Of a stretch of DNA of 64,000 bases, positions 5,296-31,709 are shown piece by piece. The notes under the pieces are model-generated. The model had not been told where the DNA came from, ran no database searches, and was given only the letters and a program-made list of their open reading frames with translations. Within the stretch, counting starts at the first letter, position 1. Every line of letters starts with the position of its first letter. This DNA comes from Shigella phage KRT47. The stretch is taken from sequence record MN781580. One strand, 5' to 3'. Made by a program: the position numbers and the translations under genes.

Positions 5296-5514
5296 TTATT
5301 TCTCTAATATAAAATAAAAATCATCATCTGTTAAATGATACCGATAGTTTAATTCTACACCATTAGATTTAAAAGCGGTATCATACGGATTTTCTGGATC
5401 AATATCAATGTCAAGAGCTAAAACTTCCCTGAGATACATTTTAAGTAAATAGGGAATAGCTTCAACTTCAGGTATTTCTTCCAAGAATCCGGAGAGGTTA
5501 ATCGTTAGCCTCAT
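5296..5514 (-). CDS. hypothetical protein
   Basis: 72-aa ORF immediately downstream of gp55. Confidence 0.55.
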
Positions 5515-6055
5515 ATAAAAAATCCAAACTAGGAGAATCGTCTACAACACTTTTCTTTTCAGCCCCCGGTGTTCTATAGGTTGATTCTTCGTAATGCGTC
5601 ATTTTATCATAGATGTCTTGAATAAAAGTTTCATCTACTAACGCAACCATATCGTCGTCACGACTGTCATAGACATTGTGAACGAAGTAACTATATTTCT
5701 TTGCAACTTCCTTACGTTCTTTTTTAATACGTTGGACGAATGCATTAAAACAAGCTTGAGTTATATACGCATGTGGGTTTTTATATTTCGTTTCATCAAA
5801 ATTATGAAGCCCCTTAATAGAAGCTTCTATACCATCTGCAATCATTTCTTGTTTCCAAGACTGGGTGTATCCTGAAAAGTTGAAACGTTTAGATAAGCCT
5901 TCTGCAATAAGCATAATGGCTAATCCGATAGTATCATTCTGACGAACTACTTTATTTGGGTCTTTATTATTTGCTAATTCTGTTTTCCAATCAATAATAG
6001 CTTGTAAAAGCTCTTTATTGTTTACGTAATTATATTTAGGCTTAGTTTCTGACAT
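5498..6055 (-). CDS. 55: late-transcription sigma factor gp55
   Basis: about 185 aa from [20 protein letters not shown]; matches recalled T4 gp55 N-terminus and length. Confidence 0.9.
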
Positions 6056-25643: not shown

Positions 25644-25852
25644 AACCATGTAACCTTTAAGCAATATTCTTCTACATGTTGTTTACGACCTTTCTTATCA
25701 ATAAAGGTATATTCAACGAATGTTCCAATGTAGTCTTTATCTACATCATGTGGACTATTAATTGGGCATTTAGTACGGCAAATGCGTTCCCATTGACGAA
25801 TAATTTCTGCTTTGTTTTTAGGATCAAACGGATGCGGGTAATGTACTTTCAT
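25640..25852 (-). CDS. hypothetical protein
   Basis: 70-aa ORF with GGTGG RBS. Confidence 0.55.
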   Translation of the reverse strand: MKVHYPHPFDPKNKAEIIRQWERICRTKCPINSPHDVDKDYIGTFVEYTFIDKKGRKQHVEEYCLKVTWL

Positions 25853-26303
25853 AATCCACCACTATTAAATCAATATCAGGAGTAAACATGTCGATTAATT
25901 TAGAAACCTTATCCCAATCACCGCCAGCAATACCGCAACCTATGCGTGGAATGTAAATTACCGGTTTAAACAAAAGGGTTTCTGCCTGTAGATTTAATTC
26001 TATCATGCAGTTTACTAAAGCACCATAATCAAGATTAGGACCTGGTTCGTATTGCGTATACAGGTTATAGCATATACCAAATCCTGTAGGACTATGTTTA
26101 AAAACAATAGACATATCGCCTAATTTATCACGAGAACCGTACTCGGTAGTGGTTTTATCTATTTCTAAAATTTTGGGATAGGCTCTTGCTAATTGACCTG
26201 CTACGCCAGAGCCCATTGTGTGGAAGCAATTACACCCGTGTGCAATAATATTACCTTGAAGAAATAGGGCGACAATATCGCCCTTGATATATTTTACAAT
26301 CAT
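25824..26303 (-). CDS. macro-domain-like protein (ADP-ribose binding/processing fold)
   Basis: 159 aa; N-terminal AHGCNCFHTMGSGVAG and C-terminal PRIGCGIAGG resemble the two macro-domain glycine-rich motifs. Confidence 0.65.
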   Translation of the reverse strand: MIVKYIKGDIVALFLQGNIIAHGCNCFHTMGSGVAGQLARAYPKILEIDKTTTEYGSRDKLGDMSIVFKHSPTGFGICYNLYTQYEPGPNLDYGALVNCMIELNLQAETLLFKPVIYIPRIGCGIAGGDWDKVSKLIDMFTPDIDLIVVDYESTLPASV

Positions 26304-26641: not shown

Positions 26642-27179
26642 TTACTATTTCCAAAAGTTTATTATTTTTAAGGTAATTAGCCTTTTCTAGGACTTCAGAA
26701 GCATATTTAGAACCTGCTTTAACATTCCATCCCGAATTATAAGAGGATATTGCTTTTCTTATATCGCCCTTATGTATATTTAACCAATAAGAAAGTTCAA
26801 TGTACGCCCAGGAAGCTGAATTGGACCGTTTATTCAACATTCTTTTTATTTCAGCATCGGTCATATTATAACCAAGTTCCTTAACTCTTGCTCGCATAGT
26901 AGGCAAATAATTTTGGAACATTCCGTAGGCGTGATGCTTTGGTTTAGATTTTAAATTAACTCCGCCAGAGCTTTCTTGCCATAAAATGGCTGCCATTATA
27001 TGACCTAATCCGCTCTTGTGGATATTTTTGTGTGTTTTATATTTTCCATCCTTAGAAAATTGTTCCCCGAATTGATACGCGTAACGCATGTTATCGAGTT
27101 GGACATTACTGAAAGTATGCTCGGAGCTATGTGCCATCATTGAAATGGCCAATAGACCAGCGAGTAGTGCTTTTCTCAT
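26634..27179 (-). CDS. secreted lytic-transglycosylase-like protein
   Basis: 181 aa; signal peptide MRKALLAGLLAISMMAHS; ES...GMFQ...YN motif arrangement reminiscent of SLT domain. Confidence 0.6.
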   Translation of the reverse strand: MRKALLAGLLAISMMAHSSEHTFSNVQLDNMRYAYQFGEQFSKDGKYKTHKNIHKSGLGHIMAAILWQESSGGVNLKSKPKHHAYGMFQNYLPTMRARVKELGYNMTDAEIKRMLNKRSNSASWAYIELSYWLNIHKGDIRKAISSYNSGWNVKAGSKYASEVLEKANYLKNNKLLEIVND

Positions 27180-27186
27180 GCTTACC

Positions 27187-27648
27187 TCATTGAGTTTTAA
27201 TTACTGCTTTAGAAGCCTTTCCTGGTAAACGACGACTGTTGATAATTGCCATCCTGCATTGAAGCGACGGGTCTTTGAACTTCGCATTAGGTTTACAAAC
27301 TGTAAATCCAAGCCAAAGATTTCCATCTGTGATTTCTAAACGCCCAGGACGATATTCAACCCCATCAATAAAATCCTCGTCAATGTCCGGACGCGGAGGC
27401 ATACTCAGGAATTCATTAACTTCTAAAACATGGTCTTTTATTTTGTGGAATAATTCAAAAACATATGTCTCATCAATCTCCCGTTGAATTGCACGGTCAA
27501 GAAGATGCTGAGAATATTTTAGATGAAACGATGAGACCCCTGCTGCTTTTGATGCCTCACGAATCTCATTGTTAATTTGACGAAACTCCGACTCAAAGTG
27601 ACGACGGAGCTTATTTCGACGGATAAAAACTTCTGTGTTGATAGTCAT
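27187..27648 (-). CDS. regB: endoribonuclease RegB
   Basis: 153 aa; sequence matches recalled T4 RegB from MTINTEVFIRRNKLRRHFESEF. Confidence 0.88.
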   Translation of the reverse strand: MTINTEVFIRRNKLRRHFESEFRQINNEIREASKAAGVSSFHLKYSQHLLDRAIQREIDETYVFELFHKIKDHVLEVNEFLSMPPRPDIDEDFIDGVEYRPGRLEITDGNLWLGFTVCKPNAKFKDPSLQCRMAIINSRRLPGKASKAVIKTQ

Positions 27649-27675
27649 GTTATTCTCCTCTTAACTGATAGAAAA

Positions 27676-27705
27676 ATTATACCACAGTCAAGAGGAAAAG
27701 TAAAC
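27676..27705 (-). promoter_or_regulatory. early promoter for regB
   Basis: minus strand GTTTAC, 18 nt, TATAAT, followed by AGGAG RBS and the regB ATG. Confidence 0.7.
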
Positions 27706-27707
27706 AG

Positions 27708-27986
27708 TTATTCTTTAAATCTAATCAATTTATTCATAGACTTTGAAACTTCTGCACGAACCTCATGTAGGTTTTTGAGCTGTTCAAGACGCTGCTCATA
27801 GTAAGCAATTTCATCTTCTTCGAGACAGTCCTGTGAATCTTCTTTAAGATAACGTGCATAGTCCTGGAAAGCTTTACGGACTACTTCCTGGAAGTCATCA
27901 AGACTTTGAATTTTCTTAGGAGCAACAGATACACGACGAGGGGCAGTATAATACTCATAACCAAACCCTGCGCTTAATTGAGCCAT
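27708..27986 (-). CDS. hypothetical small protein
   Basis: start at [13 protein letters not shown] Met giving TAATG overlap. Confidence 0.5.
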
Positions 27987-28252
27987 TAATATTTTTCCTC
28001 TGGTTGGAACACAGCACGACAAGCCCACATACTGGCTTCTTTGAGTTTCGTTTTAGCAATAGTTAACTGATCGAGGCTTTCAGCATAATTCTTTGCGAAT
28101 TCACAGTCTTCACAATTATTTAGTGCTTCCCAGAATTCATCATATAAAGCATCAAAGATAAGTCCCAAACGAACTTCAGCGTCTTTGATAGCATTCACTT
28201 TACCGATTTTCTCTTCAGTGTGCGGCTTATAACCTTTAATGTCTTCAATCAT
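27986..28252 (-). CDS. hypothetical small protein
   Basis: start at MIEDIKGYK Met; 88 aa. Confidence 0.5.
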
Positions 28253-28466
28253 ATTTGACTTCCTCACCAGTACATAAATCATATTCAACTAAACGAATAG
28301 GTTCATGAATGCCATATCCTTGAACAGAAATTTCTGTCGTAGGATAAATTCCATCAATATCACCCATATTCCATGCTTCATTAAATTGTTGTTCGCCTGA
28401 ATTACTAAACCATTCGGCGAAAGCATTTAGCACATCTTTAGAACCTTCAATAATTATCTTTGCCAT
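28245..28466 (-). CDS. hypothetical small acidic protein
   Basis: 73-aa ORF. Confidence 0.55.
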   Translation of the reverse strand: MAKIIIEGSKDVLNAFAEWFSNSGEQQFNEAWNMGDIDGIYPTTEISVQGYGIHEPIRLVEYDLCTGEEVKYD

Positions 28467-28828
28467 TACAAACTCTCAGTAAAGGTACGAGCGATAACGT
28501 CGCGCTGCTGTTCCGGAGTCAGAGAGTTAAAGCGAACTGCATAACCGGATACACGGATGGTCAGCTGCGGATATTTTTCCGGATGCTTAACTGCATCTTC
28601 CAGAGTTTCGCGACGCAGAACGTTAACGTTCAGGTGTTGACCACCTTCAATTTTAACTGTAGGCTGTGGTTCAATTTCAATTTCACGGGCATGCAAACCG
28701 TAGAAAATTTCTGGGTCTACAAAAGAGTCCTCTTTAAAGGTTTTAGAGACAATAATTCGTGCTTGAATACCATCTTCAAAATAAATAGTACCTTTATGCG
28801 TGCCTTCAAGAATTTGATATGCTTTCAT
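28466..28828 (-). CDS. autonomous glycyl radical cofactor (GrcA/YfiD-like)
   Basis: 120 aa; C-terminal half matches the conserved glycyl-radical domain ([10 protein letters not shown] ... [11 protein letters not shown]). Confidence 0.85.
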
Positions 28829-28835
28829 ATAAACC

Positions 28836-29165
28836 TCAATTAGAAAATAAATTTATCCAAGATTGTTCTTTAATTAAAAATGGCTCAGAATCATATGCCA
28901 TTAAACTTTGGGTGATTAGTCCTTTAAAAGGTCCATCAATAAATTCCATGGTAAAATATGGAATTTTATTCATTAATCTTGCATTAGGAGCAGTGCACAA
29001 AACTCTGCATCCTTTGAATACGCCTTTTTGTAATTTGTATTGCTTGGGATAAAATTCGCTCAAAATGTTATTATTTGCCAAAATTTCAAAATGATTCACC
29101 AATTTATTTTTAATAGTTTTTGGCGAAAAATAAAGATATTCGAAAAGCTGTGTGTCTGTCATCAT
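28836..29165 (-). CDS. hypothetical protein
   Basis: 109-aa ORF. Confidence 0.6.
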
Positions 29166-29704
29166 TGCATTCCAATCACAAAAAATTGAGGACGAACTGT
29201 TTCACCTGTTTCAGCATTATAGCTTCGACAACAGTGTTGCACAGTTTCAATATGAATATCGTAAATTTTATCCATATCAGGAGATTTGACAGGCTCATCA
29301 ATTATATACAAAATTCGCGAAAGCGATAAACCTCTGAACTTGCTTCCTTTATTACCAATAAAACTGCGCACAGAATCAGTAAATAAACGAAAACGTATAT
29401 CATCATTAGAATAACGCGAAAATTCCTTTTTAATGTTATTTGCAGAAATTTTAGCGTAAGCTGAAGTATTAGAAAGAACGATAACTGTTCCGCCATCATA
29501 CAACCAATTAGCAGCAAAGTTAGTCACAGCAATTGATTTACCGGATTGACGTCCACCATCTAGTCGAAGTGTGCAATACTGTTTAAGTAATTCTTCAAAT
29601 GGCGGGATATATTCGTTTTTACAAATTTCTTCTACTCTAGCATCAGAATGGTGTGTAAAAGCATTCATCAGGGATAGATAAGGACCAGTTAAAAATGTTC
29701 TCAT
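29162..29704 (-). CDS. P-loop-containing hypothetical protein
   Basis: 180 aa; Walker A-like GGRQSGKS. Confidence 0.6.
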   Translation of the reverse strand: MRTFLTGPYLSLMNAFTHHSDARVEEICKNEYIPPFEELLKQYCTLRLDGGRQSGKSIAVTNFAANWLYDGGTVIVLSNTSAYAKISANNIKKEFSRYSNDDIRFRLFTDSVRSFIGNKGSKFRGLSLSRILYIIDEPVKSPDMDKIYDIHIETVQHCCRSYNAETGETVRPQFFVIGMQ

Positions 29705-29844
29705 TTCTTCTCTCTAAGTTTGGGCCATTCCATGGCGCATGAATTGTCCATTTCTGTATTTACCCATTACCGCACTCAGGCTCGACCTTATTACAGGTTG
29801 GCGGGAATCCCTCACAGAATCATGAGGTCCAGGTTGTTCCCATA

Positions 29845-30318
29845 TTATTTGAACGATTTAACGTACTGAATAGAACCTTTACTATTTACAAAGGCAATTT
29901 TACCATTTTTATTATACATGGTAGCAGTACGTTGATAGCCATAAGTTTGTTTACCAGATTGATAACCAACTAATGCAAAATTATCTTCACCCATTTTATT
30001 CTGTTTAGCGCGAATGCGTTCATGACCATGTGCCATAAGAACCTTAGCGTCGCCAGTTGCAATGGATCTACGAGTTTTTTCATCTTCAACTGTATTAACA
30101 AAGTCGTCAAATGAATCAAATTTAGCATGAGATTTATTATACAGTTTTCCATCTACTGCATAATTATATCCCTGTACATCCATCTCAACTTCTGTACCAT
30201 CATCCAATACAGCAGTGATTTTTTGACCTTTTTTAAATTTCAAAAGATCAGTAAAAGATTCAGCAATAATTTGAGAATTAATAGCTGCTTCAGTAATAAA
30301 TTCTTGATATGTTTTCAT
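29845..30318 (-). CDS. internal (capsid-packaged) protein with capsid-targeting sequence
   Basis: 157 aa; N-terminus MKTYQEFITEA matches the T-even internal-protein capsid-targeting sequence. Confidence 0.75.
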   Translation of the reverse strand: MKTYQEFITEAAINSQIIAESFTDLLKFKKGQKITAVLDDGTEVEMDVQGYNYAVDGKLYNKSHAKFDSFDDFVNTVEDEKTRRSIATGDAKVLMAHGHERIRAKQNKMGEDNFALVGYQSGKQTYGYQRTATMYNKNGKIAFVNSKGSIQYVKSFK

Positions 30319-30334
30319 GTGTATCCTTTAATTT

Positions 30335-30652
30335 TTATTCTTTAGGGAAGTTTTTAGAATATGCATCATAAAGCTTATTTCCAATACGGCGGAAAACTCT
30401 AGCAGCAAAACGATTTTCTGGGTTTTTAATCATGATTTGCATCATATAAGTACCCGCGTCAGAAAGAGCTTCTTCATAGTACCCGTTAATTTCTTTAAGA
30501 GTCCTACGTTTACCACCAGGACCATCAACAGTGATTTTCCATTTACCTGTAGAAGTGCGACTTGGCGGCTCAACTTGTTCAATCCAGATATAACCGCCTT
30601 CTACACGTTGTCCTGCAGCAGATTCTGCAATAAATTCTTTATACGTTTTCAT
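30335..30652 (-). CDS. internal (capsid-packaged) protein with capsid-targeting sequence
   Basis: 105 aa; N-terminus MKTYKEFIAES. Confidence 0.75.
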   Translation of the reverse strand: MKTYKEFIAESAAGQRVEGGYIWIEQVEPPSRTSTGKWKITVDGPGGKRRTLKEINGYYEEALSDAGTYMMQIMIKNPENRFAARVFRRIGNKLYDAYSKNFPKE

Positions 30653-30706
30653 GTGTTTCCTTTAAATATTTTAATTAGTAATTTATCTATTCAAGTAACT
30701 GTGAAT

Positions 30707-30736
30707 ATACTATCACAATTCCAAGAGAAAGTAAAC
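30707..30736 (-). promoter_or_regulatory. early-type promoter upstream of internal-protein gene
   Basis: minus strand GTTTAC, 18 nt, TAGTAT. Confidence 0.5.
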
Positions 30737-30740
30737 AACT

Positions 30741-31709
<969 letters not shown>

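What the first reader, a model, noticed from the sequence alone, without database searches (positions are those of the whole stretch)
27708..28466. Three small proteins downstream of regB, one possibly a cyclic-nucleotide sponge
Three compact, overlapping genes of 73-92 aa follow regB under a strong early promoter. By position in the T4 gene order the middle one (27986-28252) would correspond to vs.4, the gene family reported to encode the Acb2 anti-CBASS sponge. I cannot confirm this from sequence alone. Small early proteins here are typical inhibitor candidates.
Basis: inference. Interest (0 to 1): 0.45.

Follow-up and report, generated by a model that had tools for sequence, protein, structure and literature searches.

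The report
T4 vs.5–vs.4–vs.3: two known sponges
The three small genes are near-identical copies of phage T4 vs.5, vs.4 and vs.3; two are already characterised "sponge" proteins that soak up bacterial immune signals (Acb2 against CBASS, TadIV-1 against type IV Thoeris), so only the third, Vs.5, remains unexplained.

Summary
The window is a T4-like phage (Tequatrovirus; 99.7% identical to phage FelixPlatter/Bas40). The three ORFs exist exactly where reported (73, 88 and 92 aa, overlapping by 8 and 1 nt). They lie on the minus strand, so they are transcribed before regB, not after it. The strong early-type promoter at 27704-27676 sits between vs.3 and regB and is regB's own.

- **Middle ORF (Vs.4/Acb2):** 87/88 identical to T4 Vs.4 (PDB 7UQ2). 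It passes Pfam Acb2_Tad1_hairpin and keeps Y8, K23 and F82. By identity with T4 Acb2 it should bind cyclic dinucleotides but not trinucleotides.
- **ORF next to regB (Vs.3/TadIV-1):** 90/92 identical to T4 Vs.3. This protein was shown in 2026 to be TadIV-1, a dimeric sponge for N7-cADPR that blocks type IV Thoeris. R17, R18, K24 and the long N-terminal loop are kept.
- **Third ORF (Vs.5):** a real, conserved gene found in about 990 phage records. It is strongly acidic and has no detectable sequence or structural relative of known function.

A side finding: the 58-aa Vs.5 in the T4 reference genome is a legacy one-base sequencing error.

Verdict: already known, low interest. Vs.5 is a modest lead.

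The parts
28245..28466 (-). vs.5: a 73-aa, strongly acidic protein (pI 4.1) of unknown function. Its start codon shares one base with the vs.6 stop (TAATG).
27986..28252 (-). vs.4 = acb2: an 88-aa anti-CBASS cyclic-dinucleotide sponge. Its ATG lies 8 nt inside the end of vs.5 (ATGATTGA).
   Evidence: 87/88 identical to PDB 7UQ2 'Vs.4' and to T4 NP_049728; the only difference is D45N. Pfam PF24729, 71.2 bits, E 8e-20. Y8, K23 and F82 are invariant or nearly so in 120 homologues, and position 45 lies in a hypervariable indel loop. Function in T4 is documented.
27708..27986 (-). vs.3 = tadIV-1: a 92-aa sponge for N7-cADPR that inhibits type IV Thoeris. Its ATG shares one base with the vs.4 stop (TAATG).
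   Evidence: 90/92 identical to T4 Vs.3; the differences are K38 for N and E64 for T. E 4.9e-38 to PDB 9WIW, the TadIV-1 of phage UPEC07. It belongs to the long group (>80 aa) and keeps R17, R18 and K24. PHROG_2037, E 1.7e-40.
27676..27704 (-). Early-type promoter of regB (TTTACT, 17 nt, TG-extended TATAAT). It lies downstream of vs.3, so it is not the promoter of the three small genes.
   Evidence: Consensus scans; sequence read. [quoted passage not shown]
27655..27658 (-). GGAG within the regB Shine-Dalgarno sequence (GAGGAG), the self-cleavage site of RegB.
27187..27648 (-). regB, the sequence-specific endoribonuclease. It is the next gene downstream in transcription.
   Evidence: Pfam REGB_T4, E 1.4e-68. 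152/153 identical to T4 RegB.
28466..28828 (-). vs.6, an autonomous glycyl-radical cofactor (GrcA-like). It is the gene immediately upstream and is joined to vs.5.
   Evidence: Pfam Gly_radical, E 2.8e-18. 119/120 identical to T4 Vs.6.
30816..30844 (-). Nearest early-type promoter upstream of the vs.8-to-vs.3 gene string (TTAACT, 17 nt, TG-extended TATAAT). It is only a candidate.
   Evidence: No minus-strand terminator-like site was found between it and vs.3.

Best explanation
The segment is the vs.5-vs.4-vs.3 part of the T4 'vs' gene string, read on the minus strand towards regB. The three genes are joined to each other and to vs.6 by overlapping stop and start codons. They are therefore probably made from one mRNA with coupled translation (inferred from the sequence).

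**Vs.4 is Acb2.** By near-identity with the T4 protein, it should form a homohexamer that sequesters three cyclic dinucleotides (3',3'-cGAMP, 2',3'-c-di-AMP and others). Tyr8 and Lys23 should contribute to each pocket. The CBASS effector then never sees its activating signal. Like T4 Acb2, it should not bind cyclic trinucleotides.

**Vs.3 is TadIV-1.** It should form a two-helix homodimer whose flexible N-terminal loop (R17, R18, K24) captures N7-cADPR. That is the signal made by the TIR protein of type IV Thoeris, so the caspase-like effector stays off.

Two unrelated signal sponges against two different signalling defences thus sit side by side.

**Vs.5** is a conserved 8-kDa acidic alpha/beta protein with no known relative. 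My best guess, at about 0.3, is that it is a further small inhibitor that binds a host or defence protein rather than a nucleotide. The reason is that no basic residue is conserved in the family.

What is shown and what is inferred:
- Gene identity is shown here.
- The binding activities are shown in the literature for the T4 proteins and inferred for these 98-99% identical copies.
- The single-mRNA arrangement and the Vs.5 role are inferences.
For: **Identity**
- Gene order is the same as T4.
- Vs.4 is 87/88 identical, Vs.3 90/92 and Vs.5 72/73 to the T4 proteins.
- Pfam Acb2_Tad1_hairpin scores 71.2 bits against a cut-off of 27.
- PDB 7UQ2 gives E 8.9e-57 and PDB 9WIW gives E 4.9e-38.

**Functional residues**
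- Acb2 Y8, K23 and F82 are present and are invariant or nearly so in 120 family members. The one substitution, D45N, falls in a hypervariable loop where 40 of 120 sequences have a gap.
- TadIV-1 R17, R18 and K24 are present, as are the counterparts of UPEC07 K57, E58 and H83 (K48, E49 and H74).

**Published function of the T4 proteins**
- Vs.4 forms a hexamer with three cGAMP molecules and inhibits CBASS.
- Its Kd is about 84 nM for 3',3'-cGAMP, with no cA3 or cAAG binding.
- Its Kd is about 62 nM for 2',3'-c-di-AMP. Y8A and F82C impair function.
- Deleting vs.3 makes T4 sensitive to type IV Thoeris. Vs.3 sequesters N7-cADPR, and only long-form homologues are active.

**Gene junctions**
- TAATG, ATGATTGA and TAATG.

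**Vs.5**
- It is conserved across Tevenvirinae genera.
- It has 14 acidic and 4 basic residues.
- No basic residue is among the invariant or nearly invariant columns.
Against: - No binding or infection assay exists for this exact phage, so activities are extrapolated from T4.
- The Vs.4 allele with N45 is rare. Only 2 of 1241 records reach 99% identity or more, and the allele is untested.
- Presence of the gene does not guarantee protection. T2 carries a functional TadIV-1 homologue yet is sensitive to type IV Thoeris, which the authors suggest may reflect low expression.
- The promoter and timing of the cassette are not established from the sequence.
- For Vs.5 there is no positive functional evidence at all. 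Vs.3-Vs.8 were each tested against type IV Thoeris, and immune suppression was reported only for vs.3.
Confidence: 0.9

Rival explanations
1. The small proteins are RegB-related endoribonuclease domains, as many GenBank records name them ('endoribonuclease RegB domain-containing protein', 'RegB-like RNA endonuclease'; the PDB entry 9WIW is titled 'Endoribonuclease').
For: These names appear on the vs.3 and vs.4 homologues in several records and on PDB 9WIW.
Against: Pfam REGB_T4 matches only the true regB and none of the three small proteins. BLASTP of Vs.3 against RegB finds nothing (E 17 over 4 residues). 9WIW is the TadIV-1 sponge structure. The names are annotation carried over from the neighbouring gene.
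Confidence: 0.01
2. Vs.5 is a third nucleotide-signal sponge, making the cassette a triple-sponge array.
For: It is small, widely conserved in Tevenvirinae and directly joined to two proven sponges. T4 is known to carry several anti-signalling proteins.
Confidence: 0.1
3. Vs.5 is not an anti-defence protein. Instead it is an accessory partner of its neighbours Vs.7 or Vs.6 (GrcA-like glycyl-radical cofactor), for example a small adaptor in host metabolism takeover.
Against: The fusion is a single sequence and could be a sequencing or gene-calling artefact. Salmonella phage UTK0003 keeps vs.5 without vs.7 or grcA. The structural similarity is below significance.
Confidence: 0.25
4. The D45N substitution in Vs.4, or the K38/E64 substitutions in Vs.3, change or abolish ligand binding, so that these copies are not functional sponges.
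For: The N45 allele is rare. None of the variants has been assayed.
Against: Position 45 is in a loop that varies in length and sequence across the family. It is not among the residues reported to line either pocket. Vs.3 position 64 is E in the active UPEC07 protein, and position 38 varies (N, Q or K) among active homologues.
Confidence: 0.04

Closest known systems
T4 Vs.4 / Acb2 (anti-CBASS protein 2; PDB 7UQ2; Pfam PF24729 Acb2_Tad1_hairpin)
   Same: Same gene at the same map position. 87/88 residues are identical, and the dinucleotide-pocket residues Y8, K23 and F82 are the same. So are Y37, A57, L60, D61, T64 and T68, the residues lining the occluded trinucleotide site.
   Different: A single D45N change in the hypervariable helix-helix loop. 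Compared with Pseudomonas phage PaMx33 Acb2 (about 24% identity to T4 Acb2), this T4-type protein lacks the arginine of the cyclic-trinucleotide pocket and is expected to bind dinucleotides only.
[quoted passage not shown]
   Same: Same gene and position, 90/92 identical to T4. It is the long form with the N-terminal loop, and R17, R18 and K24 are kept. The helical hairpin aligns with 9WIW along its full length.
   Different: K38 (N in T4) and E64 (T in T4). It is 9 residues shorter in the loop than the crystallised UPEC07 protein.
T4 Vs.5 (PHROG_1986), uncharacterised
   Same: 72/73 identical to Vs.5 of re-sequenced T4. It matches the family profile along its full length.
   Different: It differs from the 58-aa 'Vs.5' of the T4 reference NC_000866, which is frameshifted by a legacy one-base omission. 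No characterised family resembles it.
Other phage signal sponges (Tad1, Tad2, Acb4, Sequestin/T4 Y16O, Lockin)
   Same: The same strategy: small oligomeric proteins that sequester immune second messengers. T4-like phages carry several of them.
   Different: Vs.3 and Vs.4 show no detectable sequence similarity to each other. [quoted passage not shown]

Membership tests
Acb2 (anti-CBASS sponge) | Significant match to the family profile (Pfam PF24729 Acb2_Tad1_hairpin) above the curated cut-off | tested here: met
   71.2 bits against a cut-off of 27, E 8.1e-20, covering residues 7-83.
Acb2 (anti-CBASS sponge) | Homology to an experimentally characterised member with a solved ligand complex | tested here: met
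   87/88 identical to T4 Vs.4, PDB 7UQ2, E 8.9e-57. T4 Vs.4 is a hexamer holding 3 cGAMP.
Acb2 (anti-CBASS sponge) | Cyclic-dinucleotide pocket residues: Tyr and Lys equivalent to PaMx33 Y11/K26 (T4 Y8, and K23 by the 3-residue offset), plus F82 | tested here: met
   Y8, K23 and F82 are present. They are invariant or nearly so in 120 aligned homologues (120, 120 and 119 of 120). Y8A and F82C impair T4 Acb2. Y11A and K26A abolish binding in PaMx33.
Acb2 (anti-CBASS sponge) | Homohexamer that binds and releases intact cyclic dinucleotides, and protects phage from CBASS | not testable with these tools
   Inferred from 99% identity to T4 Acb2. Needs ITC or native gels and plaque assays.
Acb2 subgroup with a second, cyclic-trinucleotide pocket (PaMx33/JBD67 type); a variable feature that does not define the family | Arg and Thr equivalent to PaMx33 R67/T74, and a kinked helix that opens the pocket | tested here: not met
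   As in T4, the position equivalent to R67 is D61, and only T68 is kept. T4 Acb2 does not bind cA3 or cAAG, and D61R does not restore binding. This copy is predicted to be dinucleotide-only.
TadIV-1 (N7-cADPR sponge, anti-type IV Thoeris) | Homology to T4 Vs.3 and to UPEC07 TadIV-1 | tested here: met
   90/92 identical to T4 Vs.3. E 4.9e-38 to 9WIW over the full length.
TadIV-1 (N7-cADPR sponge, anti-type IV Thoeris) | Long form (>80 aa) with the N-terminal flexible loop; short forms of about 70 aa are inactive | tested here: met
   92 aa, with the N-terminal 23 residues identical to T4.
TadIV-1 (N7-cADPR sponge, anti-type IV Thoeris) | Residues shown by mutagenesis to matter: T4 R17, R18, K24; UPEC07 K57, E58, H83 | tested here: met
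   R17, R18, K24 (and K25), K48, E49 and H74 are all present.
TadIV-1 (N7-cADPR sponge, anti-type IV Thoeris) | Homodimer that sequesters N7-cADPR and rescues phage from type IV Thoeris | not testable with these tools
   Inferred from 98% identity to T4 TadIV-1.
RegB endoribonuclease family (as named in some GenBank records for vs.3 and vs.4) | Match to Pfam REGB_T4 or sequence similarity to RegB | tested here: not met
   No REGB_T4 hit for any of the three proteins. BLASTP of Vs.3 against RegB gives E 17.
Vs.5 family (PHROG_1986; no known function) | Full-length profile match and the conserved core around W19, F20, G24, E25, Q26 (WFSNSGEQ in this copy), plus G50, V60, E61 and Y62 | tested here: met
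   E 1.3e-43 over positions 1-73 of the protein and 1-76 of the profile. Invariant columns are listed.
FG-GAP / beta-propeller repeat (considered for Vs.5) | Match to FG-GAP profiles and an all-beta blade | tested here: not met
   phmmer hit a repeat protein (P0007) through the motif WFxNxGxQxF. Vs.5 itself matches no FG-GAP model even at E 10, and the motif region is helix and loop in the model.

The most novel reading that the evidence does not exclude
Vs.5 is a third counter-defence protein of a new family. It would be a small acidic inhibitor that binds a defence or host protein. It is joined by overlapping codons to two unrelated signal sponges, which would make vs.5-vs.4-vs.3 a compact anti-defence cassette. 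The composition of this cassette varies between Tevenvirinae genera. Because the T4 reference annotates a frameshifted 58-aa product, screens that rely on that annotation could have missed it.
Probability: 0.3. Interest if true: 0.55.

Novelty: already known. Interest (0 to 1): 0.17.

Why it matters
There is little new here. Acb2 and TadIV-1 are published, and these copies are 98-99% identical to the T4 proteins. The practical value is better annotation. In the closest genome (FelixPlatter/Bas40, a BASEL collection phage) all three genes are still 'hypothetical', and in other records they carry wrong 'RegB domain' names.

The result predicts that this phage resists cGAMP-type CBASS and type IV Thoeris. 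Because it carries Acb2, it should also be vulnerable to the Panoptes system, which senses sponge activity.

The remaining open item is Vs.5. It is a widely conserved small protein wedged between known anti-defence genes, and its true 73-aa form is hidden in the T4 reference by a sequencing error.

Tried and rejected
- **Vs.3 and Pfam Tex_N.** The match (E 0.0015, 18.6 bits against a cut-off of 32) is below threshold. It is a short helical stretch and was rejected.
- **Vs.5 in annotation libraries.** There were no hits in Pfam or NCBIfam, and PHROGs returned only unknown-function families. The PDB sequence search gave only a non-significant SurE hit at E 0.008.
- **Vs.5 against BFVD.** Foldseek returned only Vs.5's own uncharacterised family.
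- **AlphaFold database library (afdb50).** It was not available.
- **Exhaustive HMMER search with Vs.5.** It found only 6 cluster representatives. One was a bacterial FG-GAP repeat protein hit through a repeated motif, and this was rejected as homology.
- **Literature searches for Vs.5.** Nothing was found. The T4 accessions were absent from the supplements of the structure-based sponge screen.
- **Promoter for the cassette.** No MotA-box middle promoter with at most one mismatch was found in 27600-31600. No early-type promoter lies between 30816 and 27708, apart from weak in-gene matches at 28928 and 28409.
- **GC-rich element upstream of vs.8.** The predicted RNA fold is no better than shuffled sequence (z 0.07), and there is no Rfam family.
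- **Vs.3 against Vs.4.** No sequence similarity, so they are not a tandem duplication.

Full report
**What the window is.** A megablast of 27100-28900 against phage genomes finds 810 records, nearly all T4-like phages of Enterobacteriaceae. The best is Escherichia phage FelixPlatter (Bas40, Tequatrovirus teqdroes) at 99.7% identity. The T4 reference has the same gene order on the same strand: vs, vs.1, regB, vs.3, vs.4, vs.5, vs.6, vs.7, vs.8.

**The observation.**
- The three ORFs exist at exactly the reported coordinates: 28245-28466 (73 aa), 27986-28252 (88 aa) and 27708-27986 (92 aa).
- The mechanical ORF list gives longer TTG and GTG versions of the last two. The ATG starts reproduce the T4 proteins and have GAGGA-type ribosome-binding sites 7 nt upstream.
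- The genes overlap by 8 nt (ATGATTGA) and 1 nt (TAATG). vs.6 is joined to vs.5 by another TAATG.
- They are real genes. tblastn finds 988, 1241 and 724 phage records respectively, most with full-length matches.

**What is wrong in the observation.**
- All these genes are on the minus strand, so the three small genes are transcribed before regB.
- The strong early-type promoter (TTTACT, 17 nt, TG-extended TATAAT; 27704-27676) lies in the 59-nt gap after the vs.3 stop and before regB.
- This fits the literature. regB has its own typical early promoter, and RegB cleaves the GGAG of its own ribosome-binding site. That GGAG is at 27658-27655.
- The nearest early-type promoter upstream of the three genes is at 30844-30816. 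Late-type TATAAATA boxes lie at 31269 and 31256.
- No MotA-box candidate and no minus-strand terminator-like site were found in between.
- A transcriptome atlas classes T4 vs.4/acb2 as mostly middle/late. 'Under a strong early promoter' is therefore not supported.

**The middle gene is Acb2.**
- The 88-aa protein is 87/88 identical to T4 Vs.4, whose structure is PDB 7UQ2 (E 8.9e-57).
- It scores 71.2 bits on Pfam Acb2_Tad1_hairpin, whose cut-off is 27.
- T4 Vs.4 was identified as a cGAMP sponge that forms a hexamer with three ligands and inhibits CBASS.
- Y8A abolishes its function, and F82C reduces 2',3'-c-di-AMP binding (Kd about 62 nM for wild type).
- In the Pseudomonas phage PaMx33 protein the equivalent residues Y11 and K26 are essential.
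- In an alignment of 120 homologues, Y8 and K23 are invariant and F82 is present in 119. The only difference from T4, D45N, lies in a loop where 40 of 120 sequences have a gap.
- T4 Acb2 binds 3',3'-cGAMP at about 84 nM but not cA3 or cAAG. Its trinucleotide site is occluded by Y37, A57, L60, D61 and T64. All of these are unchanged here.
- This copy is therefore predicted to be a dinucleotide-only sponge.

- The 92-aa protein matches PDB 9WIW at E 4.9e-38.
- That entry is the apo structure of TadIV-1 from phage UPEC07.
- The paper shows that T4 vs.3 encodes TadIV-1. Deleting it makes T4 sensitive to type IV Thoeris. The protein sequesters the TIR-made signal N7-cADPR and so prevents activation of the caspase-like effector.
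- It is a dimer of two-helix protomers whose flexible N-terminal loop forms the pocket.
- Only long homologues (about 90 aa) are active. In T4, R17, R18 and K24 matter.
- The window protein is 90/92 identical to T4 Vs.3 and is of the long type. It keeps R17, R18, K24, K48, E49 and H74.
- Its two differences are at position 38, which varies among active homologues, and at position 64, where it carries the residue of the active UPEC07 protein.
- Vs.3 and Vs.4 share no detectable sequence similarity.
- The 'RegB domain' and 'Endoribonuclease' names attached to these genes in databases are carried over from the neighbour. There is no REGB_T4 match and no BLASTP similarity.

**The third gene, vs.5.**
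- The T4 reference annotates a 58-aa Vs.5 that agrees with the window only for 17 residues.
- A DNA alignment shows a one-base gap in the reference.
- Only the three legacy records (X04567, AF158101, NC_000866) have this gap. All re-sequenced T4 genomes carry the extra base.
- T4 MT984581 encodes a 73-aa Vs.5 that is 72/73 identical to the window's.
- The 73-aa frame matches PHROG_1986 end to end. It is conserved down to 43% identity in Klebsiella, Enterobacter, Citrobacter and Salmonella phages.
- The protein is very acidic (pI 4.1; 14 acidic and 4 basic residues).
- It has a conserved core around W19, F20, G24, E25, Q26 (WFSNSGEQ in this copy) plus G50, V60, E61 and Y62. No conserved basic residue is present.
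- With a 57-sequence alignment, AlphaFold2 gives a confident small beta-alpha-alpha-beta-beta fold (pLDDT 89.8).
- A bacterial FG-GAP repeat protein hit is motif-level only.
- Some homologues have C-terminal extensions. One (Enterobacter phage PG7) is fused behind a Vs.7-like half.
- Vs.3-Vs.8 were tested individually against type IV Thoeris, and inhibition was reported only for vs.3.
- No paper on Vs.5 was found. Its function is open.
- The absence of conserved basic residues argues against a nucleotide sponge and for a protein-binding role. This is only an inference.

**Comparative context.** The stretch upstream of regB is modular.
- Klebsiella phage KP182: vs.8, vs.7, a longer vs.5, grcA, then a 93-aa gene.
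- Phage WG01: vs.8, vs.7, vs.5, then a 92-aa gene identified as Acb2 by the homologue search.
- Salmonella phage UTK0003: only vs.8 and vs.5.
- Acb2 is the most widespread of the three (1241 records). TadIV-1 is the least (724 records, of which 628 cover at least 80% of the query).

**Verdict.** The cassette holds two already published sponges in near-identical copies, plus one conserved protein of unknown function. This is known biology and of low interest. Two modest by-products are the Vs.5 lead and the error in the T4 reference annotation.

Noticed in passing
window 28245-28466; L001 (T4 NC_000866) 5345-5558; L007 (T4 MT984581) 443-664: The T4 reference genome annotates Vs.5 as 58 aa because of a one-base omission after codon 17. 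The omission is inherited from the legacy record X04567. All re-sequenced T4 genomes and about 986 other phages encode the 73-aa protein. The reference annotation is therefore wrong, and screens based on it use a nonsense C-terminus.
   Followed up: yes
window 29712-29845 (minus strand); L001 6790-6940: A GC-rich element of about 125 nt between the upstream gene and the vs.8 ATG is about 95% conserved with T4, although the upstream neighbour differs (denV in T4, an internal-protein-like gene here). T4 annotates it as an N-terminal extension of Vs.8 (219 aa). The window has an in-frame TAG and a 9-nt deletion, so Vs.8 probably starts at the internal ATG (180 aa) and the element is something else. 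The predicted RNA fold is no better than shuffled sequence (z 0.07), and there is no Rfam hit.
   Followed up: partly
window 29704-30741: denV (endonuclease V), which in T4 lies between ipII and vs.8, gives no tblastn hit anywhere in the 64-kb window. Its place is taken by two genes whose products begin MKTYQEFI/MKTYKEFI, resembling T4 internal-protein N-termini. One is a DUF7412 protein (E 5.7e-96), and it has weak similarity to IPII.
   Followed up: partly
L003 (KP182), L004 (WG01), L005 (UTK0003): The cassette upstream of regB is modular across Tevenvirinae genera. acb2, vs.3, grcA and vs.7 come and go, and the order of vs.5 and grcA is swapped in Jiaodavirus. vs.5 and vs.8 are the most constant members.
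   Followed up: partly
P0169 (Enterobacter phage PG7, 156 aa): A single protein fuses a Vs.7-like N-terminal half to a full Vs.5 domain. This may hint at a functional link between Vs.7 and Vs.5, or it may be a sequencing or gene-calling artefact.
   Followed up: no
GenBank records under; PDB 9WIW: vs.3, vs.4 and even vs.1 homologues are often named 'endoribonuclease RegB domain-containing protein' or 'RegB-like RNA endonuclease'. The PDB entry for TadIV-1 is titled 'Endoribonuclease'. There is no sequence basis for these names.
   Followed up: yes
window 29162-29704 (vs.8): Vs.8 contains a Walker-A-like GGRQSGKS motif. It has a weak match to the ATPase part of terminase large subunits (PHROG_2, E 7.9e-06), suggesting a small P-loop NTPase of unknown role at the head of the gene string.
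   Followed up: no
window 25824-26303 (tk.4 homologue): A 159-aa Macro-domain protein (Pfam Macro, E 1.3e-07) lies three genes downstream of regB. Macro domains act on ADP-ribose derivatives, which is notable next to a sponge for an ADP-ribose-derived signal. This was not examined further.
   Followed up: no
window 27986-28252: The N45 allele of Acb2 is rare. Only 2 of 1241 phage records reach 99% identity or more to the window protein, one of them FelixPlatter at 100%. The T4 protein has D at this position.
   Followed up: partly
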